Virus record (IMG/VR): IMGVR_UViG_3300020473_000024
Span: 21,012-85,011 of that record
DNA from: a virus
Strand: one strand, 5' to 3'
DNA length: 64,000 nt
Shown here: positions 2,493 through 47,375 of the stretch, piece by piece
Layout: every line of letters starts with the position of its first letter
Position numbering within the stretch: position 1 is the stretch's first letter
The notes under the pieces: model-generated
Told to the model about the DNA's origin: nothing
Databases searched by the model: none
The model's input: only the letters and a program-made list of their open reading frames with translations
Translations under genes and position numbers: made by a program

Positions 2493-3342
2493 TTAATGGC
2501 ACTGCGCCCAGTTGCGCCCCAGCTGGTAGCCAGCGGTGAGGTCAACACGTAAGTTATAGAACTTACCTCCTTCTTCGATAGACTTAACTGCTAACTCTCC
2601 AGCTCTGCTGTAGCCACACCACCAAACTCCGTTGGCGTGTCCGATATCACTAAACACCTTCCCTGTAGATTCCTCCATCTGAGCCTTCCACTCCTCAGCT
2701 TCTTCCTCAGACTTGAATGACTTAATCTTAACGTTACGGGTGTGCTCTTCCATCTGACTTTCATCATGGTAAAATATGATAGCCTCAGCTTCAAGGTTTT
2801 CATCTCTCACCCAACGATCCCAGTAGACAGCGGCACGTTTCATACAGATAACGCCAGCTGATTGGAATAAAGTATTTACTAGGCTGTGTCTAGAACGAGC
2901 CATAAGCTTTCTTCCATCAACACCCACTATAAACTTCTTATCGTTGTCTGTCCAGTGTTTTTCTAATGCTTTCTTTAAAAGAGCAAGAGGCTTAGAAGCT
3001 TCCCAAAATGCGTTGAATACACGTTGAGCATGATCCAAACTCCATCCCATTTGTTTAGCAATCTTAGGTGGTTGAGCACCATAAGAGGAGCTATACTTTA
3101 ATACTTTAGCACTATCCCGATCCACCCCCATTTTTTCAGCATTAACAGAATGTATGTCGTGTGGCTTAGGAGATACCAGTGCTTTGGCATACTCCTTCCC
3201 GTTGTAAGGAAGACAATAGTGAGCCTCTACACGAGCTTCCAAACCATCAGCATCACAACCTATCTGAACACTACCTTTTGGAACACAGAACATGCTCCTC
3301 ATAGGCTCTCCATACAAACTCGTAACACGGGGGATATTTGCA
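2493..3342 (-). CDS. DNA polymerase family A, exon 2 (polymerase domain)
   Basis: Motifs DADGLEAR (A), AKVLKYSSSYG (B), YHDE (C); frame extends to ANIPRVTSLYGEPMR at the 3' splice site. Confidence 0.92.
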
Positions 3343-3350
3343 CTTTATAT

Positions 3351-4250
3351 TCACTCAAAGTCGCTAGCTTTGAGCCGTTCTCGTAAGCAAGAATGAAAGT
3401 ATCTCCGAGTTGTTATCTCTTGTATCTTAAGTTCTTTAGAGATGTCTCCAAGAGATTTACCCTCTAGGAACATCCTTACTATAATACAACCCAGTTCATC
3501 TTTTGTATAACCCAGATCAGTTGCTACTAGAAACCTTCTATTACCTTTGTCTAGATAACATCCTAACAACCTTCTAGCAGAGAAGTAGCCAATATTCATG
3601 GTCTTAGATATCTTCGTTAAAGTAGCACCTAAGGCATACATCTTTCTAACAACATAAGGATCTGTGTTATTGATCTCTTGATTGAATAGAGACATGTCTT
3701 GTTTGCTTATGTAGACTTTTGCAAAATGCCTGTGTCTACCAAGATCCCTAGATATTTTTGCGAAAGAGTACCCCTTTAGTGACTGCTTGTAAATAAACTC
3801 TGCAAGAAAAGAGGAATCTTTAAACCCTAGCGACTCTGCTGTCCTGTCCCTTTTTGAAGAGGAACTCTTACAGTTGGCGACATCTTTCAATGTCTCTCCA
3901 TACCTGTTAACAACCTTGTCTTGCGCCATTGTGTGCAAAGATTGATTACAGAGATTATAGTAGAGAGGGTTATTTGCGGCATCAACTTGCTCCAACAACT
4001 CCACTTCTTTTTTGGCAACAGCTTCTCTACTACCTTTAAAGAGGACTTCAACAGAGAATCTATCTCCTCTAGAGAAATCTTTAAAATACTGGACACTGGC
4101 AGAGCTAGACCAATATTCTTTATCCTCTCTGTTACACCAAATAATCTCCTCTCCCTCGATAGAGACAATATCACATTCTTGTTTCATACCTATGTAATAT
4201 TTAGGTTTCGCGTCTTCTCTTTTATTAACTAATCTGTATACAATATTCAT
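3351..4250 (-). CDS. Intron-encoded GIY-YIG homing endonuclease with C-terminal HTH repeats
   Basis: N-terminal IVY...YYIG, downstream E and YN motifs; repeated HTH-like segments; AGGAG RBS after P9. Confidence 0.8.
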   Translation of the reverse strand: MNIVYRLVNKREDAKPKYYIGMKQECDIVSIEGEEIIWCNREDKEYWSSSASVQYFKDFSRGDRFSVEVLFKGSREAVAKKEVELLEQVDAANNPLYYNLCNQSLHTMAQDKVVNRYGETLKDVANCKSSSSKRDRTAESLGFKDSSFLAEFIYKQSLKGYSFAKISRDLGRHRHFAKVYISKQDMSLFNQEINNTDPYVVRKMYALGATLTKISKTMNIGYFSARRLLGCYLDKGNRRFLVATDLGYTKDELGCIIVRMFLEGKSLGDISKELKIQEITTRRYFHSCLRERLKASDFE

Positions 4251-36802: not shown

Positions 36803-37747
36803 TTAAAATTCTACGTTATATTTACCTACTTGGATAATATTCGGGATATCCAATAAATCCCACATGCGAACAACCTGAGGTCGATCATCAAACAAAGCAA
36901 TAACATTATACTTGCCACGAACTTGGTTGTCAAATAATTCATACTTAATAATGTCATCTTTTCGACTGTCTTTGGGAGATCGTTGGTAAAGATCCCATTT
37001 AATACCCAGCCGAGCTAAATCGTCTGTGATAATGTTGTCCTCAATCCACTGTGCAGAGGAATCGTAGCAGACTCCATCCCTGCCAGAAAAGAATGTAATA
37101 TGTCCCGTCTTAAGTGCTAGAGCACTCACCATATCGATGACCTCTTGGCGGGGCTTATCTAAATGAACTTTATCCCAATCAAAAGGTTTCCGAACACCAG
37201 TCATATCCGCAACAGTGCCATCTAAGTCCACGATGATAGTATCCTCTAGGAATAGACAATCTTCGTAGGGCTTGATTTTATTTCCACCAATAGTACCAAA
37301 TTGTTGCATAAAACGCTTGTATTGACTCCAAAGAAGACTTTCTGGTAAACCGCCCTCACGCTGTGCATTCCGTTTGACAAGTGTTTCCCAGCTTTCTTGG
37401 AAATATTTATACTCCACTTCATAGCCGTTCTCTTCAGCCCAACTCTCCCATTTACCTCGGATGGCTGGGCTGAGGTTCGTGTCAGAAATAATAATGTTAT
37501 GCTGTAGTACAGAGGCATCAAAAGCCTTTTGATCGACCACTTTTGTAACACGTTTTTCATTACTATTGTTGAACTTGTACTTTGTCCAATCCCGAACACC
37601 ATTGTTAAACAAAGCAAAGCGAATATCATCACGGTTGAGATTGACCCACTTAGGGTCTCCTTGCAGGGCTTGTTCTAAGATATACTCTTCAGCCCATTTT
37701 GTCTTACCAGAGCTGGACGCTCCTACAGTCATAATTAATTTAAGCAT
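36803..37747 (-). CDS. pseT: Polynucleotide 5'-kinase/3'-phosphatase (T4 PseT-like)
   Basis: GASSSGKT, NRDDIR, DTNL kinase; DLDGT, SGR, FDDR HAD phosphatase. Confidence 0.9.
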   Translation of the reverse strand: MLKLIMTVGASSSGKTKWAEEYILEQALQGDPKWVNLNRDDIRFALFNNGVRDWTKYKFNNSNEKRVTKVVDQKAFDASVLQHNIIISDTNLSPAIRGKWESWAEENGYEVEYKYFQESWETLVKRNAQREGGLPESLLWSQYKRFMQQFGTIGGNKIKPYEDCLFLEDTIIVDLDGTVADMTGVRKPFDWDKVHLDKPRQEVIDMVSALALKTGHITFFSGRDGVCYDSSAQWIEDNIITDDLARLGIKWDLYQRSPKDSRKDDIIKYELFDNQVRGKYNVIALFDDRPQVVRMWDLLDIPNIIQVGKYNVEF

Positions 37748-39042
37748 TAACTAGAATCCTCCATATCAACGTTGTTTTCTCTATAAATGCCCTCCAAAAT
37801 TTTAAAAGGGATAGACTTATTCTTATAGAACTTCGGCACTAACGTCTCTCCATCTACACGAATCACAACACCCTCGCTAATGTGGGATGGGTCTCGATAG
37901 TCCTCACAAAGGTTATCTTCACGCTCTGTTAATACGTCTACCACATTCATTAAACTGTCAGAGTCTCCTCGGTAAACAAAAGGCTCTACTAGATCAAGAG
38001 TAGATTCAATACCACGGTCTTCACACCAACGTTTGAATTGACTTTGTGTTAAATCAATTTCTGTGCCATCGATGGACGTGATTGTCACACGATAAGCATA
38101 AAACTTATACTCATCTGGGAGGCAGTTATAAGTGTAAGTAATCTCTTTACCATACTTCTTAGTGAACTGCTTATCCTTTAGTTTAGTTACGTCATGCGTA
38201 CCCATAATAGGTTTACCATTAGCAAAGCCTACAATCTCTCCATACACAGTAACACCTCGGTTAAGGAAGGGTTTTAGTTGCTCTAAAATCTCAAAGCGGA
38301 AGCCTTCATTACCGTGAAATCCTTCTTTATCTTTTTGAGAATTTTTAAGAACAACCCTGCGTGTCCCTGCTACATAATCCCACTCCTGAGTCTCGAAAAT
38401 AGGAACAACCTTATTTACAAGACGTTTCCACCAAGGTAATTCTTTCTCAACTAAGGTGTGGCTATAACGAGCCGATGTTCCATGACCTTTTGCTTGAATA
38501 CTAATAATAGAGCCAGCTGGAATGCGATCAACATGATACTTGAATTGATCAGTATCAACGTGTTGATGAAATAAAGGTGTTTCTTGCTTCTTACGCGCTT
38601 TTGTCCTTTGATTTGCTTGGGCTTTTTTAGTGCGAGGGTTGATATACTTCTGAGCAATAGGCACTCCATTTAGTTCTTCAAACATCATGCCTAACTCTAA
38701 CTTACTGATATCATACCCTGTAAAATGGAAGGACTCTAACCCAGCAAAGTAACCACACGACTTAACACCTAAGAAAGGTTGTGCGCGTACCCTGCGGTTA
38801 TCTTCAAAGAATCCCTTAGCCTTTGGGTTTTTGTTGTTTTCACTGTTACGATACAGCCCATTATCACTAACATAATCGTGAGATAGTTGAGTCTCAGCTG
38901 GGAAGTACACACCTAAGTCTCCCTCTTTAGCTGTCTTGGATACGATAACAGGCTCACCAAGTACATAAGCTACTTGGATGTTATCTGCTTTTTCAATCTG
39001 TTCTGTTTTTGCAATCTTAGCAATAATACCACAGTAGTTCAT
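37747..39042 (-). CDS. RNA ligase (DRB0094/Rnl5-like)
   Basis: N-terminal ADNIQ...GVYF domain; KGHGTS, YGEIVG, EGVVIR, KNKS; AGGAGG RBS before MNYCG. Confidence 0.8.
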   Translation of the reverse strand: MNYCGIIAKIAKTEQIEKADNIQVAYVLGEPVIVSKTAKEGDLGVYFPAETQLSHDYVSDNGLYRNSENNKNPKAKGFFEDNRRVRAQPFLGVKSCGYFAGLESFHFTGYDISKLELGMMFEELNGVPIAQKYINPRTKKAQANQRTKARKKQETPLFHQHVDTDQFKYHVDRIPAGSIISIQAKGHGTSARYSHTLVEKELPWWKRLVNKVVPIFETQEWDYVAGTRRVVLKNSQKDKEGFHGNEGFRFEILEQLKPFLNRGVTVYGEIVGFANGKPIMGTHDVTKLKDKQFTKKYGKEITYTYNCLPDEYKFYAYRVTITSIDGTEIDLTQSQFKRWCEDRGIESTLDLVEPFVYRGDSDSLMNVVDVLTEREDNLCEDYRDPSHISEGVVIRVDGETLVPKFYKNKSIPFKILEGIYRENNVDMEDSS

Positions 39043-39071
39043 TAAAATACCTCCTAAATTTAGACAATAAA

Positions 39072-39101
39072 AAGCCATGTACCCAAAAGGATACACGGCT
39101 T
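39072..39101 (-). terminator. Terminator hairpin after clpP-like gene
   Basis: AAGCCGTGTATCC-TTTT-GGGTACATGGCTTTT. Confidence 0.6.
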
Positions 39102-41105: not shown

Positions 41106-41182
41106 TGGTGGGTCGAGAGGGATTTGAACCCCCGATCCACTCGTTAAAAGCGAGTTGCCTTACCAGACTTGGCTATCGACCC
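41106..41182 (-). tRNA. tRNA-Lys(TTT)
   Basis: Cloverleaf, ACTCG-CTTTTAA-CGAGT, encoded CCA. Confidence 0.93.
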
Positions 41183-41187
41183 TGATT

Positions 41188-41262
41188 TGGAGCTTGCTGG
41201 GGGTTACGATCCCCCGACCTCTGCTTGGAAGGCAGATATTTTACCAATTAAACTAAGCAAGC
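41188..41262 (-). tRNA. tRNA-Gly(TCC), atypical T-loop ATCGTAA
   Basis: GCTTGCT/AGCAAGC acceptor, TCTGC-CTTCCAA-GCAGA, U73, CCA. Confidence 0.85.
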
Positions 41263-41267
41263 CAATG

Positions 41268-41344
41268 TGGTGCGCCAAGGCGGTTATGATCCGCTCCTAC
41301 TCCTAGTTATGAGCTAGTTGCTTTCCCGATTAAGCTATTGGCGC
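41268..41344 (-). tRNA. tRNA with CAT anticodon (elongator Met or Ile2), atypical T-loop ATCATAA
   Basis: GCGCCAA/TTGGCGC acceptor, CTAG-CTCATAA-CTAG, CCA. Confidence 0.8.
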
Positions 41345-41349
41345 GAAAA

Positions 41350-41425
41350 TGGTAGTGGTGGCAGGAATCGAACCTGCGACACGTAGATTATCGGTCTACT
41401 GTTCTACCAGCTGAACTACACCACT
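41350..41425 (-). tRNA. tRNA-Ile(GAT) with C33
   Basis: GTAGA-CCGATAA-TCTAC, TTCGATT, CCA. Confidence 0.88.
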
Positions 41426-41429
41426 GGAT

Positions 41430-41506
41430 TGGCTGAGGTGGAGGGATTCGAACCCCCGACCATCTGCTTAGAAGGCAGATGCTCTATCCAACTGAGCTAC
41501 ACCCCA
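41430..41506 (-). tRNA. tRNA-Arg(TCT)
   Basis: TCTGC-CTTCTAA-GCAGA, A20, CCA; starts immediately after the upstream stop codon. Confidence 0.93.
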
Positions 41507-42916
41507 TTAAACTAAAAATACTGGATCATACCGAGAATCTAGAACAGTTTCGTACATGATATCCAAAGGACTCACCACCTTAGAAGATAACACTGATCTC
41601 ATAATAGATGGGCTAAATCCACTTACTAAAGCTGTACCATTATCTTGCTTCTGGACAGGGTAGTTCTCTTGTCGAGAGCAGACATTCCAGAAAATTAAGT
41701 CAGGTCTTTTATAACCAGCTTTCTCAAACATCTTATCAATAGTGGCGAAGTTAGTCATCCCACCACAAGCACAATCAAATTCCATGTCACTGATGATCAT
41801 AATCTTATTAGGAAGTTCACTTTGGTCTAAACCATGCTTTACAGCCGATTCCAGTACAAGTTGAAATACAGCGATCAAGTTTGTATTGAAACCCCAATCC
41901 GAGTTGTATAGAGATCGAAGTTTACTATATAGCTTATCTCCTTTAACATTCTGTAAAGAAGGTCTTTCAGAGAAAGTAATAAACTTATTGTTAAACTTAC
42001 CTTCGATACGTTCTGATAGATAAAGACCTAAGCTAACAGCAACATCCATAGCCGTTGTACTACCACTAACTTTGATGTGCATACTCCCAGAGGTGTCAAC
42101 CACAGGAAGAATGCTAAAACTCTCTCCTTCAAAGTAATCTGGAAGGGCTTCCCACTGTTCGTTCGCGGCTGTTGTATTACCACCTTCTCGCATACTTTTA
42201 ATAATATCGTAAGGATATACCGCCCCAGCGTTAATCTTAGCCTCACCTTTACTAAGCTTATCTAAGTAGCTTCTGTAACGATTCTCATCATTACGTAAGA
42301 AAGATTTTTGATATCGAGCCGAAGCTACTGAAGGTACATGCTCATAGTTGATCTTGTCAAACTCTTTAGCACACATTTTTTGTTCCACAGTATCGCTCAA
42401 GCTAGACAGCATCTTACGGTACTCTTTTGAGCGAAGCCCCATGTGTTTACGTAGCAGTACAGCATAATCTCGTTTAGCTGACTTCTCACGAGGACACCAT
42501 TTAGCGGCTAGCGCACTACCTTCTTTAAGCTTTGAGGCATAAAAAGAAAGCATAGCCTCTTCTAAATCCGTACCAACAAACGTAAACAGATTATCATAGC
42601 GAGTCAACTCAACAACCTTGTCAAAAAGTTCTGTAGTGTTAAGGTCTTCTGTCAACTCTGGTAGAAGTTTAACAAGGTCTTTAAAAATTTGTCTTTCACC
42701 AGCTCCTTGGCGCACATCACCAGCCCATAAAAGAATACGGGTGGCTAATCCTTTATCCTCATTCCAAGCTCGTACAAACTTGTGATCGATATTCTTACCG
42801 CGAGAAGCCCCGATAGTAGCGAATAGATCTAAATTAGCGTCTAAGCTCGAAGAATTAGTGATAGCCCCGTTTTCAGTACGAGACATACCTGTTTGCATAG
42901 CATCAAATAATTCCAT
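41507..42916 (-). CDS. TROVE/Ro60-like helical domain plus vWA protein (DUF2828-type), 469 aa
   Basis: TENGA, DVRQGAGER, LAAKWCPRE, VPSVA; MIDAS DTSGSM, T, SDMEFD, FWNV, SGFS; AGGAGG RBS before ATG 42916. Confidence 0.8.
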   Translation of the reverse strand: MELFDAMQTGMSRTENGAITNSSSLDANLDLFATIGASRGKNIDHKFVRAWNEDKGLATRILLWAGDVRQGAGERQIFKDLVKLLPELTEDLNTTELFDKVVELTRYDNLFTFVGTDLEEAMLSFYASKLKEGSALAAKWCPREKSAKRDYAVLLRKHMGLRSKEYRKMLSSLSDTVEQKMCAKEFDKINYEHVPSVASARYQKSFLRNDENRYRSYLDKLSKGEAKINAGAVYPYDIIKSMREGGNTTAANEQWEALPDYFEGESFSILPVVDTSGSMHIKVSGSTTAMDVAVSLGLYLSERIEGKFNNKFITFSERPSLQNVKGDKLYSKLRSLYNSDWGFNTNLIAVFQLVLESAVKHGLDQSELPNKIMIISDMEFDCACGGMTNFATIDKMFEKAGYKRPDLIFWNVCSRQENYPVQKQDNGTALVSGFSPSIMRSVLSSKVVSPLDIMYETVLDSRYDPVFLV

Positions 42917-42932
42917 AAATCCTCCTAAATTC

Positions 42933-42982
42933 TGAATGTGTTTTGCTTCCATATCGCGGATTTGTTTTGCTGTATACATTCA
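42933..42982 (-). ncRNA. UACAGCAA module 1 (stem-loop directly upstream of the vWA gene RBS)
   Basis: TGAATGT/ACATTCA stem, TACAGCAA, inner TCC-GCGATAT-GGA. Confidence 0.6.
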
Positions 42983-42994
42983 TCCAATTAAAAC

Positions 42995-43048
42995 AGTGTT
43001 GCTTTTTCTTTTTATCCCATAAAAGTATAAAGTTGCTGTAACAACACT
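42995..43048 (-). ncRNA. UACAGCAAC module 2
   Basis: AGTGTTGT/GCAACACT stem, TACAGCAAC, inner CTTTT-ATGGGAT-AAAAAG. Confidence 0.65.
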
Positions 43049-43054
43049 TCAGAC

Positions 43055-43113
43055 AGGATGCTATACATAGTTTGATTAAAAGTCAAATTGTGTAAAGTTG
43101 CTGTAAGCATCCT
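43055..43113 (-). ncRNA. UACAGCAAC module 3 with a tRNA-Lys(UUU)-like anticodon stem-loop
   Basis: AGGATGCT/AGCATCCT stem, TACAGCAAC, inner TTTGA-CTTTTAA-TCAAA. Confidence 0.7.
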
Positions 43114-43202
43114 CTCGGAAAAGCTGTTAAGCCTAACACTGAAAAGTTGAGGTGAACCACATCCCTCTTACCCCGTGGTAACATCGGGTTTTAAATATAT
43201 TG

Positions 43203-43317
43203 TTGAGGGGGCTGGATTCGAACCAGCGACCAACGGCTTATCATGCGAGTATAGTTGCTGTAATTATACTTAACAGTATAAATATTACGTTGCTCTACCA
43301 AACTGAGCTACCCCTCA
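43203..43317 (-). ncRNA. tRNA-Ile(GAT)-like RNA with 41-nt UACAGCAAC insert in the anticodon stem (module 4)
   Basis: TGAGGGG/CCCCTCA acceptor, GCTC-AGTTTGGTA-GAGC D arm, GCTGG-TTCGAAT-CCAGC T arm; ACG[insert 43287-43247]GC-ATGATAA-GCCGT; no encoded CCA. Confidence 0.8.
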
Positions 43318-43324
43318 AAAATAT

Positions 43325-43507
43325 ACCCTACACTAACGCAGTAGGCTCGGAATGTTTGGTAACAGAGCTAACCATTCTTAGCTCCGCATGGGTGTAGCTA
43401 TTAGGCTACTGCCGCCATGTGGTATGTACTATCGTTTGCATTTATAACGATTAGTCATAGTTGCTGTAGGGACGACGACCCCCACCGATGTCTTCTCAGA
43501 ACATCGA
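43325..43507 (-). ncRNA. Module 5: UACAGCAAC RNA carrying a tmRNA-like tag reading frame
   Basis: ATAAAT|GCA AAC GAT AGT ACA TAC CAC ATG GCG GCA GTA GCC TAA TAG; stops in hairpin GTAGC-CTAATA-GCTAC; downstream pseudoknot GGAGCTAA/TTAGCTCT plus GAATG/CATTC. Confidence 0.65.
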
Positions 43508-43512
43508 GAAAT

Positions 43513-43540
43513 ATACTAACATACTAAATTTATTTGTCAA
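43513..43540 (-). promoter_or_regulatory. Sigma70-type promoter driving the RNA array, vWA gene and tRNA cluster
   Basis: TTGACA-16 nt-TAGTAT with TG extension. Confidence 0.6.
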
Positions 43541-43560
43541 TACATTTTTCGATATTTTTA

Positions 43561-43713
43561 GAAGCTGGAGCTTCACTGAGATACAGGCTCTCCACTCCGT
43601 AACTTTCCTGTATTGCTTCATTAAACCCTATAAACACGCATTATAGGTTGCGGTAGGACTTTTATATCCCGACCCTGCGTATCGGTTTGAGGTATCCGCT
43701 AGTGGATAACTTC
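43561..43713 (-). ncRNA. Unknown structured RNA, about 150 nt
   Basis: Ends GAAGTT/AGCTTC pair; hairpins TATCC/GGATA, CCTATAA/TTATAGG, ATACAGG/CCTGTAT; no ORF; own promoter. Confidence 0.5.
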
Positions 43714-43722
43714 AATACATCT

Positions 43723-43750
43723 ATTTTACCACAACATCACTAGTTGTCAA
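43723..43750 (-). promoter_or_regulatory. Sigma70-type promoter
   Basis: TTGACA-16 nt-TAAAAT with TGTGG before -10. Confidence 0.7.
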
Positions 43751-45686: not shown

Positions 45687-46679
45687 ATGAGTATGGAATT
45701 TTTAGCTAAGTTTGTACATGGAAGTCATCTTTACAAACTAAACACACCTGCATCTGACACCGATTTTAAAGGTGTCCATGTACCTAGTCTTGACGACCTG
45801 TTGTTGTGTGATGCCACCCATCACATTAACTTGGGTACGGACAAGAAAAGTGGGAGTAAAAATACAAAAGACGATGTTGATTTTGAAAGTTATTCTATCC
45901 ACAAGTGGGTAGACCTACTATCCAAAGGAGAGATGGTGTGTTTTGACATGTTGTTTGCTCCAGAGGATTGTGTGGAGTATTACCACAAAGGTGAGGTGAC
46001 GACAGACCCAGCCCTGTTGGAAAGAAATCCTGTGTGGATTATCCGAAACCGTTATAAGGATTTGTTTGTGCATTCAGATATGAAGGCTTACCTAGGCTAT
46101 TGCCGTAGACAAGCTAGTAAGTATGGTATCAAAGGAAGTCGATTGCACAGCCTTTTTGAGATCCAAGGTGTGTTAGAAAACCTAGATATCCGCAGGAAAG
46201 ATAGATTATACAATTACGTAGAGAAACTACCTACTAATGAATATTTGAAATTAGAGGACGACCACTACGAGGTGTTGGGTAAGAAACACCAACTAACAAC
46301 CTATATGGAAGAGTTTTGTGATAGAATTACTGCGGAGATCAACAAATATGGTAATCGGGCTGTCCAAGCGGAAAAGAACGAAGGTGTTGATTGGAAGGCG
46401 GTTAGCCACGCTTTTCGTGCAGGGTATCAGATCCAGAGTATGCTCTATACAGGAGAGATGTTTGTTGTACTACCTGACGAGATTAGAAAGTATGTCTTAA
46501 AACTTAAAAAAGGGGAATTGGATTGGACAACAGAAGTAAAACCTAATCTGGAGAAACTTATGAACATAGTGGAGTTAATCGCTAGAGAAAATCCCTTAGA
46601 TCTTCCAGAGAAACCAGATAAAGGGGTTATTCAAGAAAAACTTCTAGAGATCTTGAAAGATTTTAACAATATCTCTTGA
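45687..46679 (+). CDS. Pol-beta-superfamily nucleotidyltransferase (T4 NrdC.11/RlaP-like)
   Basis: HGSHLYKLNTPASDTDFKG (GS...DxD), DWKAVSHAFR. Confidence 0.8.
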   Translation: MSMEFLAKFVHGSHLYKLNTPASDTDFKGVHVPSLDDLLLCDATHHINLGTDKKSGSKNTKDDVDFESYSIHKWVDLLSKGEMVCFDMLFAPEDCVEYYHKGEVTTDPALLERNPVWIIRNRYKDLFVHSDMKAYLGYCRRQASKYGIKGSRLHSLFEIQGVLENLDIRRKDRLYNYVEKLPTNEYLKLEDDHYEVLGKKHQLTTYMEEFCDRITAEINKYGNRAVQAEKNEGVDWKAVSHAFRAGYQIQSMLYTGEMFVVLPDEIRKYVLKLKKGELDWTTEVKPNLEKLMNIVELIARENPLDLPEKPDKGVIQEKLLEILKDFNNIS

Positions 46680-47137: not shown

Positions 47138-47214
47138 AGCGGAGTGGAGAAGTTTGGTATCTCGCCAGACTCATTATCTGGAGGTCGGGTGTTCGAATCA
47201 CCCCTCCGCAACCA
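47138..47214 (+). tRNA. Initiator-like tRNA-fMet(CAT) with U37
   Basis: Unpaired A1:A72, A11-U24, CCAGA-CTCATTA-TCTGG, CCA. Confidence 0.85.
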
Positions 47215-47218
47215 ATCA

Positions 47219-47295
47219 CTCTGTGTAGCTCAGTTTGGGAGAGCATATGCTTTGGGAGCATAGGGTCAGAGGTTCAAGTCCTTTCACAGAGACCA
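47219..47295 (+). tRNA. tRNA-Pro(TGG)
   Basis: TATGC-TTTGGGA-GCATA, C1-G72, CCA. Confidence 0.93.
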
Positions 47296-47299
47296 ATTC

Positions 47300-47375
47300 G
47301 GGGAATTAGCTCAGTGGTCAGAGCGTCTGCCTGTTAAGCAGAGGGTCACTGGTTCAAATCCAGTATTCCCCTCCA
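47300..47375 (+). tRNA. tRNA-Asn(GTT)
   Basis: TCTGC-CTGTTAA-GCAGA, CCA; discriminator U. Confidence 0.88.

What the first reader, a model, noticed from the sequence alone, without database searches (positions are those of the whole stretch)
41507..43507. Candidate new RNP system: Ro60/TROVE-like vWA protein preceded by an array of five UACAGCAA-motif RNA modules
Seen: on the minus strand TACAGCAA(C) occurs five times in about 500 non-coding bp (plus-strand 42967-42974, 43032-43040, 43097-43105, 43254-43262, 43460-43468). Each copy is unpaired and immediately 3' of a helix whose sequence differs between copies but keeps its pairing (TGAATGT/ACATTCA, AGTGTTGT/GCAACACT, AGGATGCT/AGCATCCT, TATACT/AGTATA, GGG/CCC), and each is followed by a variable hairpin. 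The array lies between a promoter (43513-43540) and a gene with a TROVE-like N-terminus and MIDAS vWA domain, whose stop codon abuts a five-tRNA cluster. Known: Ro60/Rsr (TROVE+vWA) binds Y RNAs made of a protein-binding stem plus a variable, often tRNA-like, effector module, and Ro genes often neighbour RNA-repair genes. Inference: helix+UACAGCAA is the binding handle of this protein, and each module presents a different translation-related RNA cargo, a Y-RNA-like cassette array unlike the Y RNA/YrlA consensus I know.
Basis: partly seen in the sequence, partly recalled or inferred. Interest (0 to 1): 0.92.

Follow-up and report, generated by a model that had tools for sequence, protein, structure and literature searches.

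The report
Phage Ro60-like protein with partner RNAs
An 85-kb marine phage encodes, just upstream of a Ro60-like protein gene, five small structured RNAs sharing one conserved "handle"; the same pairing recurs in very different phages, and the handle closely resembles the unexplained Class I RNAs of social amoebae.

Summary
TACAGCAA occurs five times in 42967-43468(-), against 2.45 copies expected in the whole window. Three copies (43053-43115, 42993-43050, 42931-42984) are about 55-63-nt RNAs. Each has a 7-8-bp clamp helix joining its ends, then U-UACAGCAA, a variable interior and a 3' CUG. There the handle is circularly permuted and replaces the anticodon arm. One copy is atypical.

A model of the handle hits only the DUF2828 gene's strand:
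- 41 of 41 hits in phage loci;
- 73 of 76 hits in 50 whole records, 30 of them within 1 kb of the gene;
- 27 of 27 hits in 25 unrelated genome contigs.

It hits 4 of 5 named phages with the gene and 0 of 7 tRNA-rich phages without it.

No Rfam family reaches threshold. The only full-length sub-threshold match is Dictyostelium Class I RNA (RF01414).

Protein binding is inferred, not shown. Earlier reports of this scan found the same system on other DNA. I found no publication describing it.

The parts
43513..43540 (-). Sigma-70-type promoter of the RNA array (TTGACA-16-TAGTAT with TG)
   Evidence: 10 of 12 consensus positions. No terminator-like site on the minus strand down to 41100.
43486..43506 (-). 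5' hairpin of the transcript with a loop of the CUG-NN-AAG type; possibly a closed handle belonging to copy 1
   Evidence: The register is ambiguous (a U bulge or a U-G pair next to the loop), so this is an inference.
43460..43468 (-). Motif copy 1 (atypical: preceded by a small G/C hairpin, no clear clamp partner)
   Evidence: The best candidate 3' partners are weak (6 bp with G-U, and not followed by CUG).
43320..43459 (-). Structured leader between copy 1 and the tRNA-like gene (three or four predicted hairpins)
   Evidence: single-sequence folds only, with no close relatives to test them.
43203..43317 (-). tRNA-like RNA with acceptor, D and T arms, in which the anticodon arm is replaced by a 52-nt insert carrying the handle
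   Evidence: Rfam tRNA 49.2 bits. ARAGORN does not call it; alignment with KVP40 pseudo-tRNAs 3, 4 and 5 and two Citrobacter phage Ci1 elements; 16 of 23 predicted pairs show compensatory changes.
43264..43281 (-). Closed (circularly permuted) handle hairpin with the invariant CUG-NN-AAG loop
   Evidence: The loop and its closing C-G pair are invariant in 6 of 6 sequences, and the stem covaries.
43254..43262 (-). Motif copy 2, two bases 3' of the closed handle hairpin
43053..43115 (-). Handle RNA 3: 8-bp clamp, UUACAGCAAC, interior, 3' CUGU
   Evidence: R1 42.0 bits (it is a seed of the model); best RF01414 hit in the whole genome, 24.7 bits, model positions 1-56 of 56.
43071..43087 (-). Interior hairpin of RNA 3: 5-bp stem and a 7-nt loop identical to the anticodon loop of the phage's own tRNA-Lys(UUU)
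   Evidence: compare 41139-41155 in tRNA-Lys at 41106-41182.
42993..43050 (-). Handle RNA 4: clamp, UUACAGCAAC, interior, 3' CUGU
   Evidence: R1 42.4 bits (a seed). RF01414 21.0 bits, second-best hit in the genome.
42931..42984 (-). Handle RNA 5: 7-bp clamp, AUACAGCAAA, interior; its 3' strand ends 7 nt before the ribosome-binding site
   Evidence: R1 38.2 bits (a seed). for the spacing.
42914..42925 (-). Ribosome-binding site GGAGG and the likely true start codon
   Evidence: the Atlas holds the protein from residue 22 of the listed ORF, that residue read as M.
41507..42916 (-). DUF2828 + DUF7788 (vWA with a full MIDAS) protein; Ro60-like by indirect evidence
   Evidence: PF25043 4.4e-49 and PF11443 6.3e-30; phrog_850 'RNA-binding protein', 1.7e-150. 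D295, S297, S299, T366 and D398 invariant in 41 sequences. for the Ro60 likeness.
41106..41506 (-). Five tRNA genes (Arg, Ile, Met, Gly, Lys) directly after the stop codon, probably on the same transcript
   Evidence: one search finds no terminator in between.

Best explanation
The region is one transcription unit of a phage ribonucleoprotein system analogous to Ro60 with Y RNAs. A promoter at 43540-43513 drives five small RNAs, then the gene for a DUF2828-type, vWA/MIDAS-containing, Ro60-like protein, then five tRNAs.

The RNAs share a 'handle'. It consists of a G-C-anchored clamp helix of 7-8 bp, the single-stranded U-(A/U/C)-CAGCAA directly 3' of the helix's 5' strand, and an unpaired G after the helix's 3' strand (CUG). 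I infer that this handle is the protein's binding site.

The part enclosed by the handle is variable cargo. In RNA 3 it is a tRNA-Lys anticodon stem-loop mimic. In RNA 2 the topology is turned inside out: the cargo is a whole tRNA body with open acceptor ends, and the handle's own ends are sealed into a CUG-NN-AAG loop at the place of the anticodon arm.

By analogy with Ro60/Y RNA, the cargo would tether the ring protein to tRNA-directed enzymes or targets. Given the neighbouring PNKP, RNA ligase and RlaP genes, a role in tRNA damage, repair or decoy defence against host anticodon nucleases is the most likely setting. The last handle, 7 nt from the ribosome-binding site, may also let the protein repress its own translation.

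Shown here: the RNAs' conservation, their pairing, and their co-occurrence with the gene. Inferred: binding, processing into separate RNAs, and function.
For: 1. Clustering. 5 of the 13 motif copies in the window lie in about 500 non-coding bases; 2.45 copies are expected in the whole window.

2. The exact motif recurs on the gene's strand next to homologues that are only 39-51% identical in protein.

3. A strict helix-plus-motif scan of 67 loci gives 37 hits on the gene strand, 11 on the opposite strand, 3 on the reversed sequence and 1 on the complement.

4. Covariance model R1:
- 41 of 41 hits on the gene's strand, in 26 of 57 IMG/VR loci plus the window, KVP40 and Felix O1 (27 of the 41 are seeds).
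- In 50 whole records (4.59 Mb), 38 of 50 have a hit. Of 76 hits, 73 are on the gene's strand. 30 lie within 1 kb of the gene (2.1% of the sequence) and 59 within 10 kb (17%).

5. Independent set. In 25 genome and MAG contigs not used for the model, 27 of 27 hits are on the gene's strand, in 15 of 25 loci, and 23 of 27 lie within 1 kb (distances counted by hand).

6. Presence and absence. R1 hits 4 of 5 named phages with the gene (Aeh1, KVP40, Ci1, Felix O1; not D490). It hits 0 of 7 tRNA-bearing phages without it (T4, T5, S-PM2, Bxz1, LP65, phiKZ, SPO1).

7. Pairing. 88% of cells are paired, against 57% in shuffles and 35-46% when the partner columns are slid. All 8 pairs show changes on both sides. 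G-C is kept in 37 of 41 sequences, the unpaired 3' G in 41 of 41 and CAGC in 41 of 41.

8. The permuted form keeps the same conserved letters in 6 of 6 tRNA-like hybrids from three phage lineages.

9. Protein. It has a complete MIDAS. The top PDB profile hit is the Thermus phage TROVE protein (E 0.0099). With DUF2828 clusters left out, 30 of 30 nearest named Atlas clusters are TROVE. Homologues in mycobacteriophages are labelled 'Ro-like RNA binding protein'.

10. Context. PNKP, RNA ligase and RlaP lie nearby. In 13 of 15 regions around distal hits there are tRNA genes on the same strand.
Against: - No experiment or structure shows that the protein binds the handle.
- Pfam TROVE matches none of 41 family members at E up to 5, and nothing in this genome. 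The PDB hit covers only the MIDAS stretch. The language-model score is 0.92 with 147-165 shared features, below the 170 that the tool states as typical of same-family hits.
- The seeds of R1 were picked by a scan that demanded a helix, and alignment A4 is fitted to the model. The pairing percentages therefore lean towards the structure.
- 12 of 50 gene-bearing records, 10 of 25 genome loci and phage D490 gave no hit. Many of these records are fragments.
- Phage genes are often co-oriented over long blocks, which inflates same-strand counts.
- Many hits lie 5-8 kb from the gene inside tRNA arrays, so the link could partly reflect shared synteny.
- Copy 1 fits neither handle form.
- The RNA-library evidence is contigs only, from one study, and does not show transcription or RNA ends.
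Confidence: 0.65

Rival explanations
1. The handles are only cis-acting operators in the gene's 5' leader. The protein, or another factor, binds them to control translation of the DUF2828 gene, and there are no free partner RNAs.
For: Handle 5 ends 7 nt before the ribosome-binding site. In several other loci a handle also abuts the gene start: L062 3894-3954, L063 3931-3994 and L113 7947-7993, with gene matches starting at 4001, 4001 and 8001. No terminator separates the array from the gene.
Against: Within 1 kb of the gene, 20 hits lie downstream and only 9 upstream. A further 46 of 76 hits lie more than 1 kb away, and 13 of 15 sampled distal regions are tRNA arrays. One copy is built into a tRNA body with its own acceptor ends. 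A leader operator does not explain tandem arrays of 3-5 different cargoes.
Confidence: 0.1
2. The handle RNAs are stand-alone small RNAs or processing modules of phage tRNA operons that work with some other partner, such as a host RNase, a tRNA enzyme or another phage protein. They sit near DUF2828 genes only because both belong to a conserved tRNA/RNA-repair gene block.
For: Many hits lie 5-8 kb from the gene, inside tRNA arrays, with spacers of a few bases to the neighbouring tRNAs. Dictyostelium Class I RNA, which has a similar handle, is reported to bind the RRM protein Rnp1A directly (PMC7919456, passages read).
Against: 0 of 7 tRNA-bearing phages without the gene have a hit, against 4 of 5 with it. 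The pairing persists although the arrangement changes between upstream, downstream and distal. It also persists across contigs binned with many bacterial phyla and one archaeal lineage, at 35-46% protein identity. 39% of hits fall in the 2.1% of sequence within 1 kb of the gene.
Confidence: 0.15
3. The element at 43203-43317 is a true tRNA gene interrupted by a small intron, which is removed and resealed by the phage PNKP and RNA ligase. The motif inside it would then be incidental.
For: It has full acceptor, D and T arms (49.2 bits). PNKP and RNA ligase are encoded 4-6 kb away. Some database records label homologues as tRNA-Val or tRNA-Ile.
Against: No 5-bp anticodon stem with a 7-nt loop can be formed from the flanks; only 3-5 pairs close the insert. 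The insert itself is the conserved part: the hairpin with the invariant CUG-NN-AAG loop and the following motif are kept in 6 of 6 elements from three lineages, while the stem covaries. ARAGORN finds no tRNA there.
Confidence: 0.04

Closest known systems
Ro60 (Rsr, TROVE + vWA) with Y RNAs: bacterial and phage YrlA/YrlB (Rfam RF02553; Chen et al. 2014, PMC4201824, passages read) and Thermus phage phiLo Ro60 with Yrl1/Yrl2 (PMC12135203, abstract and sections 4, 8 and 17 read)
   Same: A vWA/MIDAS protein of about 470-500 residues is encoded next to several small RNAs. Each RNA combines a conserved protein-handle module, formed by the RNA's ends, with a variable and often tRNA-like module. RNA-repair genes lie nearby. 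The genome context is a phage.
   Different: The protein is not recognised by Pfam TROVE (0 of 41 relatives). The RNAs do not match RF02553 (best 15-31 bits against a gathering score of 69, and those hits fall on tRNA parts). The Rsr-type GNCGAA/CGAA motif is absent from the leader. The handle motif is UACAGCAA with a 3' CUG. The tRNA-like member is not permuted like YrlA: its acceptor ends are open and it is the handle that is closed.
Dictyostelium Class I RNAs (Rfam RF01414; Kjellin et al. 2021, PMC7919456, passages and section 14 read)
   Same: The length is about 55-65 nt. A short stem joins the 5' and 3' ends. A 5' G pairs with the C of a 3' CUG(U). The same motif (RF01414 consensus ...CUUACAGCAA, printed) lies directly 3' of the 5' stem strand, followed by a variable A/U-rich interior. 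The Dictyostelium-derived model gives full-length hits in 24 of 50 gene-bearing phage records (33 hits), and 27 of those 33 coincide with hits of my phage-derived model.
   Different: No hit reaches the gathering score of 41.5: 24.7 and 21.0 bits in this window, 36.1 at best elsewhere. The phage RNAs lie in polycistronic arrays or tRNA operons rather than as single genes behind a DUSE promoter element. The only reported direct protein partner in Dictyostelium is the RRM protein Rnp1A. Whether dictyostelids encode a DUF2828 protein was not tested here. Homology and convergence cannot be told apart.
'Pseudo-tRNAs' of Vibrio phage KVP40 and relatives (GenBank annotation tRNA-Pseudo-3, -4, -5)
   Same: The element at 43203-43317 is 77-79% identical over 104-106 nt to tRNA-Pseudo-3 of KVP40-like phages (32 records). 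It shares the tRNA body with the insert in the anticodon arm.
   Different: Those elements are annotated only as defective tRNAs, or as tRNA-Val or tRNA-Ile. Here the insert is read as a permuted copy of the handle shared with the free handle RNAs.

Membership tests
Ro60 / TROVE protein family | TROVE domain (Pfam PF05731) detectable in the N-terminal two thirds | tested here: not met
   0 of 41 aligned family members match PF05731 at E up to 5. There is no match in the whole 85-kb genome at E up to 10.
Ro60 / TROVE protein family | C-terminal vWA domain with a MIDAS motif (DxSxS...T...D) | tested here: met
   PF25043 at 4.4e-49. D295, S297, S299, T366 and D398 are invariant in 41 sequences. 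The PDB profile hit to the phiLo TROVE protein falls across this motif (E 0.0099).
Ro60 / TROVE protein family | Ring of HEAT-like helical repeats closed by the vWA domain | not testable with these tools
Indirect only: with DUF2828 clusters excluded, 30 of 30 nearest named ESM Atlas clusters carry TROVE, at score 0.92 with 147-165 shared features.
Ro60 / TROVE protein family | Binds small RNAs encoded beside its gene | tested here: inconclusive
   Co-occurrence and same-strand adjacency are strong. Binding itself was not tested.
YrlA / Y RNA-like (Rfam RF02553) | Match to the covariance model at its gathering score (69 bits) | tested here: not met
   The best hits are 30.6 bits across two adjacent true tRNAs and 15 bits on the D arm of the tRNA-like gene.
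YrlA / Y RNA-like (Rfam RF02553) | Rsr-binding motif GNCGAAN0-1G (Chen et al. 2014) | tested here: not met
   There is no GNCGAA in 42917-43512(-). The only CGAA is in the T loop of the tRNA-like gene.
YrlA / Y RNA-like (Rfam RF02553) | tRNA-like domain with a sealed acceptor stem, the RNA's ends lying in the protein-binding stem | tested here: not met
   The tRNA-like member here has open acceptor ends and a sealed handle. Handle RNAs 3-5 have their ends in the handle but no tRNA-like domain.
Dictyostelium Class I RNA (Rfam RF01414) | Short stem joining the 5' and 3' ends, 5' G paired to the C of a 3' CUG(U), length 42-65 nt | tested here: met
   RNAs 3-5 are 54-63 nt. G-C is kept in 37 of 41 sequences and the 3' G in 41 of 41. 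The features are as described in PMC7919456.
Dictyostelium Class I RNA (Rfam RF01414) | Conserved 11-nt motif directly 3' of the 5' stem strand | tested here: met
   RNAs 3 and 4 share 9 consecutive letters with the RF01414 consensus, and RNA 5 shares 8. The positions that the paper calls nearly invariant (3, 6, 9, 10, 11) are kept.
Dictyostelium Class I RNA (Rfam RF01414) | Match to the covariance model at its gathering score (41.5 bits) | tested here: not met
   24.7 and 21.0 bits in this genome. The best of 33 hits in 50 related records is 36.1 bits.
Dictyostelium Class I RNA (Rfam RF01414) | Single genes behind the DUSE promoter element; known only from Dictyostelia | tested here: not met
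   Here the RNAs form a tandem array behind one sigma-70-type promoter in a phage.
tRNA (Rfam RF00005), for 43203-43317 | Cloverleaf with an anticodon stem-loop | tested here: not met
   Acceptor, D and T arms score 49.2 bits (gathering score 29). The anticodon arm is replaced by a 52-nt insert, and ARAGORN reports no tRNA there.

The most novel reading that the evidence does not exclude
The phage handle RNAs and the Class I RNAs of dictyostelid social amoebae are one RNA family, or have converged on one recognition mode. Class I RNAs are abundant, developmentally regulated, of unknown mechanism, and were reported as unique to Dictyostelia. The conserved partner of this family would be a DUF2828-type Ro60-like ring protein, and Pfam finds this protein family in eukaryotes as well. 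On that reading, phages such as Felix O1, KVP40 or Aeh1 would offer a simple model for working out what Class I RNAs do. The tRNA 'pseudogenes' of KVP40-like phages would be functional handle-bearing tRNA mimics.
Probability: 0.25. Interest if true: 0.92.

Novelty: new variant of a known kind. Interest (0 to 1): 0.8.

Why it matters
DUF2828 proteins are very common in phages. Homologues were found in 711 of 50,697 phage records and in at least 7,949 protein clusters. In the library searched they are essentially unstudied: 5 papers mention the name, and none deals with function.

If the family is a second, sequence-divergent branch of Ro60 with its own Y-RNA-like partners, several things follow:
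- A large class of unannotated RNAs in phage tRNA clusters gets an explanation.
- The long-standing 'pseudo-tRNA' annotations of KVP40-like phages get an explanation.
- A new player joins the tRNA damage and repair conflict between phages and hosts.
- Well-known culturable phages become ready experimental systems.

The resemblance to Dictyostelium Class I RNAs would make an open question about those RNAs directly testable.

Tried and rejected
Protein fold and family
- phmmer of the protein against PDB sequences found nothing at E up to 1. Only the profile search gave a weak TROVE hit.
- I looked for TROVE genes in 37 DUF2828-bearing records, hoping to build a TROVE profile for comparison. There were 0 of 37, so no profile-profile comparison was made.
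- The search for homologous proteins with A1 listed only near relatives, without organism names. It could not tell whether dictyostelids have the protein. That question stays open. An earlier scan note says one amoeba does; I did not test it.

Papers
- Avesson 2011 and Aspegren 2004 are not held. I therefore could not see which four proteins associate with Class I RNA.
- Text searches for the motif returned only unrelated papers, mostly primers, in the rows listed: 15 of 411 and 12 of 382. These searches are weak evidence of absence.
Chen 2014 Table S2 (its phage list) and the Kjellin 2021 supplements may bear on overlap with known Y RNAs.

RNA structure and scans
- I searched for a clamp partner for copy 1. 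The candidates are weak and none is followed by CUG.
- My scan for the closed handle form found it only in this genome, KVP40 and Ci1, and in 0 of the 67 IMG/VR loci.
- The relaxed 6-bp helix scan was uninformative: 103 hits on the gene strand against 100 on the opposite strand. I replaced it with the strict scan.
- MAFFT misaligned one sequence (L062) and shifted three others. I dropped L062 and L069 from the seed alignment, and L042 and L054 as likely false positives lying in coding sequence.

RNA libraries
- Four metatranscriptome runs of one study hold pieces of the region. Exact or near-exact contigs cover 43310-43505, 42723-42932, 42009-42164 and 41336-41505. A related strain covers 42865-43050.
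- These are contigs from libraries that may contain DNA, so they show presence only. Stretches without cover mean nothing.

Complex prediction was not used, because it takes no RNA.

Full report
WHAT IS THERE

The window is bases 21012-85011 of an 85,011-bp virus record that is 99% complete by CheckV. The best DNA holders are marine metagenomes, which may be its source.

On the minus strand, between a strong sigma-70-type promoter (43540-43513) and a DUF2828/DUF7788 gene, lie about 590 non-coding bases. They hold five copies of TACAGCAA. The window has 13 copies where 2.45 are expected, and none of 100 shuffles reached 13. The eight copies outside the array all fall inside long ORFs.

The gene's listed ORF starts at 42979. 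A GGAGG at 42925-42921 followed by ATG at 42916-42914 is the likely start, and the ESM Atlas holds the protein from that residue. Copy 5 is therefore not coding. The stop codon abuts five tRNA genes. No terminator-like site lies on this strand down to 41100, so array, gene and tRNAs may form one transcript.

ANATOMY OF THE FIVE COPIES

Copies 3, 4 and 5 (43053-43115, 42993-43050, 42931-42984) have one architecture:
- a clamp helix of 7-8 bp whose 5' strand ends at the motif;
- U-UACAGCAA(C/A);
- 25-35 variable, A/U-rich bases;
- the 3' strand of the clamp;
- CUG(U), or CAG in copy 5.

The interior of copy 3 is a 5-bp stem with the 7-nt loop of the phage's own tRNA-Lys (43071-43087 compared with 41139-41155).

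Rfam tRNA scores 49.2 bits over acceptor, D and T arms, with a 52-nt insert where the anticodon arm should be. ARAGORN does not call it. It is 77-79% identical to 'tRNA-Pseudo-3' of KVP40-like vibriophages (32 records).

I aligned it with KVP40 pseudo-tRNAs 3, 4 and 5 and two elements downstream of the DUF2828 gene of Citrobacter phage Ci1. All six carry a covarying hairpin with an invariant CUG-NN-AAG loop, followed after 1-3 bases by U-N-C-(A/U)-G-C-A.

The free handle RNAs begin (A/U)AG and end CUG, so this loop is what one gets by joining the two ends of a free handle. The tRNA-like element is thus a circularly permuted version. The handle is sealed and placed where the anticodon arm would be, and the 'cargo' is a tRNA body with open acceptor ends.

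Copy 1 (43460-43468) follows a small G/C hairpin. Further upstream is a hairpin with a CUG-AG-AAG-type loop (43486-43506). I found no convincing clamp for it, and it stays atypical.

IS IT MORE THAN THIS PHAGE?

Homologues of the protein occur in 711 phage records, among them Felix O1, KVP40, Listeria A511, Campylobacter phages and mycobacteriophages. They also occur in at least 7,949 protein clusters.

In 67 IMG/VR loci whose proteins are only 39-51% identical, the exact motif recurs on the gene's strand. It often comes in pairs about 60 nt apart, directly after the stop codon or directly before the start. A strict helix-plus-motif scan gave 37 hits on the gene strand, 11 on the other strand, 3 on the reversed sequence and 1 on the complement.

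I built a covariance model (R1) from 27 free handles, three of them from this window.
- On 63 sources it gave 41 hits at E up to 0.1, all 41 on the gene's strand. 27 of these are seeds. The new ones include three in the Felix O1 tRNA array and one in the KVP40 tRNA region.
- On 50 whole IMG/VR records (4.59 Mb), 38 had a hit. Of 76 hits, 73 were on the gene's strand. 30 lay within 1 kb of the gene, where 2.1% of the sequence lies, and 59 within 10 kb, where 17% lies.
- Of 15 regions around distal hits, 13 hold tRNA genes on the same strand. Some handles sit a few bases from the neighbouring tRNA.

An independent set gave the same picture. In 25 contigs from GTDB genomes and MAGs, binned with many bacterial phyla and one archaeal lineage and none used for the model, there were 27 hits. 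All 27 were on the gene's strand, in 15 of 25 loci, and 23 were within 1 kb (distances counted by hand).

Presence and absence agree as well. Among 12 named phages, the protein domain is present in 5 (Aeh1, KVP40, Ci1, D490, Felix O1), and R1 hits 4 of them. The 7 tRNA-bearing phages without the domain (T4, T5, S-PM2, Bxz1, LP65, phiKZ, SPO1) have no hit. I had picked Aeh1 as a presumed negative, so its result was blind.

PAIRING

On the 41 aligned hits, 88% of cells pair, against 57% in shuffles and 35-46% with slid partners. All eight pairs show changes on both sides. The second pair is G-C in 37 of 41 sequences, the unpaired G after the helix is present in 41 of 41, and CAGC in 41 of 41.

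There is a caveat. The seeds were selected for a helix and the alignment is fitted to the model, so these figures lean towards the structure. The conserved flanking letters, the strand and position statistics, and the independent set do not depend on that selection.

THE PROTEIN

Pfam gives DUF7788 (a vWA domain, 4.4e-49) and DUF2828 (6.3e-30). PHROGs gives phrog_850 'RNA-binding protein'. The MIDAS residues are invariant.

Pfam TROVE matches none of 41 relatives. Evidence that the protein is Ro60-like is indirect:
- The best PDB profile hit is the TROVE protein of Thermus phage phiLo, but only across the MIDAS stretch (E 0.0099).
- With DUF2828 clusters excluded, all 30 nearest named Atlas clusters carry TROVE (score 0.92).
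- Mycobacteriophage homologues are labelled 'Ro-like RNA binding protein' by their annotators.

None of 37 DUF2828-bearing records also has a TROVE gene.

Nearby genes encode polynucleotide kinase-phosphatase (36803-37747), RNA ligase (37747-39096), PhoH and an RlaP-type nucleotidyltransferase (45687-46679). This is an RNA-repair setting like that of bacterial Ro60 operons.

COMPARISON WITH WHAT IS KNOWN

The system works like Ro60 with Y RNAs: a handle formed by the RNA's ends, plus a variable and sometimes tRNA-like module, encoded beside the protein (PMC4201824; PMC12135203). It is not a member of YrlA. There is no RF02553 match and no GNCGAA motif.

The only Rfam family that aligns full-length to the free handles is RF01414, Dictyostelium Class I RNA. 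Copies 3 and 4 are the two best hits in the whole genome (24.7 and 21.0 bits; E 9.7e-4 and 8e-3 per genome). In 50 gene-bearing records the Dictyostelium model gave 33 hits in 24 records at E up to 0.05 per record, where about 2.5 would be expected by chance. Of these, 27 coincide with R1 hits. None reaches the gathering score of 41.5; the best is 36.1.

Kjellin et al. (PMC7919456; passages and section 14 read) describe Class I RNAs as follows:
- 42-65 nt long;
- a short stem joining the ends;
- an invariant 5' G that pairs with the C of a transcribed 3' CUGU;
- an 11-nt motif next to the 5' stem strand;
- a variable remainder.

They report the class as unique to Dictyostelia. The phage handles share each of these features. 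Whether this is common descent or convergence on a similar binding partner cannot be decided here. I could not test whether dictyostelids encode a DUF2828 protein.

EXPRESSION

Contigs of four metatranscriptome runs (one study, three samples at most) match parts of the unit exactly or nearly so. These include 43310-43505, which runs from about the predicted start to the 5' end of the tRNA-like gene, and parts of the gene and the tRNAs. Such libraries can contain DNA, and contigs do not show ends, so this shows presence only.

EARLIER SCAN REPORTS

After I had reached the reading above, I looked up earlier notes. At least 15 earlier reports on other genomes describe the same protein-RNA pairing and the same resemblance to Class I RNAs. 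One was checked later: the observation stood, and its bold reading was rated 6 in 100. For another, a note says that part of the same claim fell on other DNA. These notes agree with my tests but are not independent evidence.

Specific to this window are three things: the five-member array placed in the 5' leader of the gene; the permuted handle inside a complete tRNA body, which explains the KVP40-type 'pseudo-tRNAs'; and the Lys anticodon-loop mimic.

VERDICT

The RNAs are real, conserved and specifically linked to DUF2828 genes. That they are the protein's binding partners in a Ro60/Y-RNA-like particle is the best explanation (about 0.65), but it remains inference. I found no paper or Rfam family describing the system.

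Noticed in passing
window 43541-43750 (-): A second, stronger promoter (TTGACA-16-TAAAAT with TG, 11 of 12) lies 210 bp upstream. It is followed by about 180 non-coding bases that fold into several hairpins and lack the motif. An RNA-library contig matches 43605-43775 exactly. This may be another small RNA or a leader.
   Followed up: partly
L001:1200-1446 and 2997-3112 (Vibrio phage KVP40): The three 113-124-nt 'pseudo-tRNAs' annotated in KVP40 all carry a hairpin with a CUG-NN-AAG loop, followed by a variant of the motif. KVP40 also has a free handle RNA at L001:5689-5750 in its tRNA region (R1 42.4 bits).
   Followed up: partly
L014:5524-5770, L017:5822-5995, L022:6168-6340, L034:5497-5740, L039:5795-6035: In many loci the second motif copy after the gene opens a clamp (GGAUCGG.../...CGAUCC type) that encloses about 170-250 nt. 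The 3' segment is conserved and a terminator follows. This looks like a large handle-closed RNA with unknown cargo and no Rfam match.
   Followed up: partly
L022:8278-8727 and L062:1844-2125: Two of the related phage contigs carry tmRNA genes near the DUF2828 gene: a standard one (75.4 bits) and a permuted one (90.9 bits).
   Followed up: no
window 36803-39096 (-) and 45687-46679 (+): A T4-like tRNA repair pair (polynucleotide kinase-phosphatase and RNA ligase) and an RlaP-type 'RNA repair pathway' nucleotidyltransferase flank the locus. A second cluster of three tRNAs lies at 47138-47375.
   Followed up: partly
NC_005260 (Aeromonas phage Aeh1) 111336-111517 (-) and 99321-99908 (-): I chose Aeh1 as a presumed negative control. 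It turned out to have the DUF2828-type gene and two handle RNAs on the same strand, about 11.5 kb away.
   Followed up: no
L009:1862-2452 (Vibrio phage D490): A homing endonuclease gene sits directly upstream of, and opposite to, this phage's DUF2828 gene. D490 was the only one of the five gene-bearing named phages without a handle hit; that search ran with Infernal's stricter filters.
   Followed up: no
L071:8548-8603: This handle RNA sits between two tRNA genes with only a few bases of spacer. It holds a second copy of the motif inside its interior.
   Followed up: no
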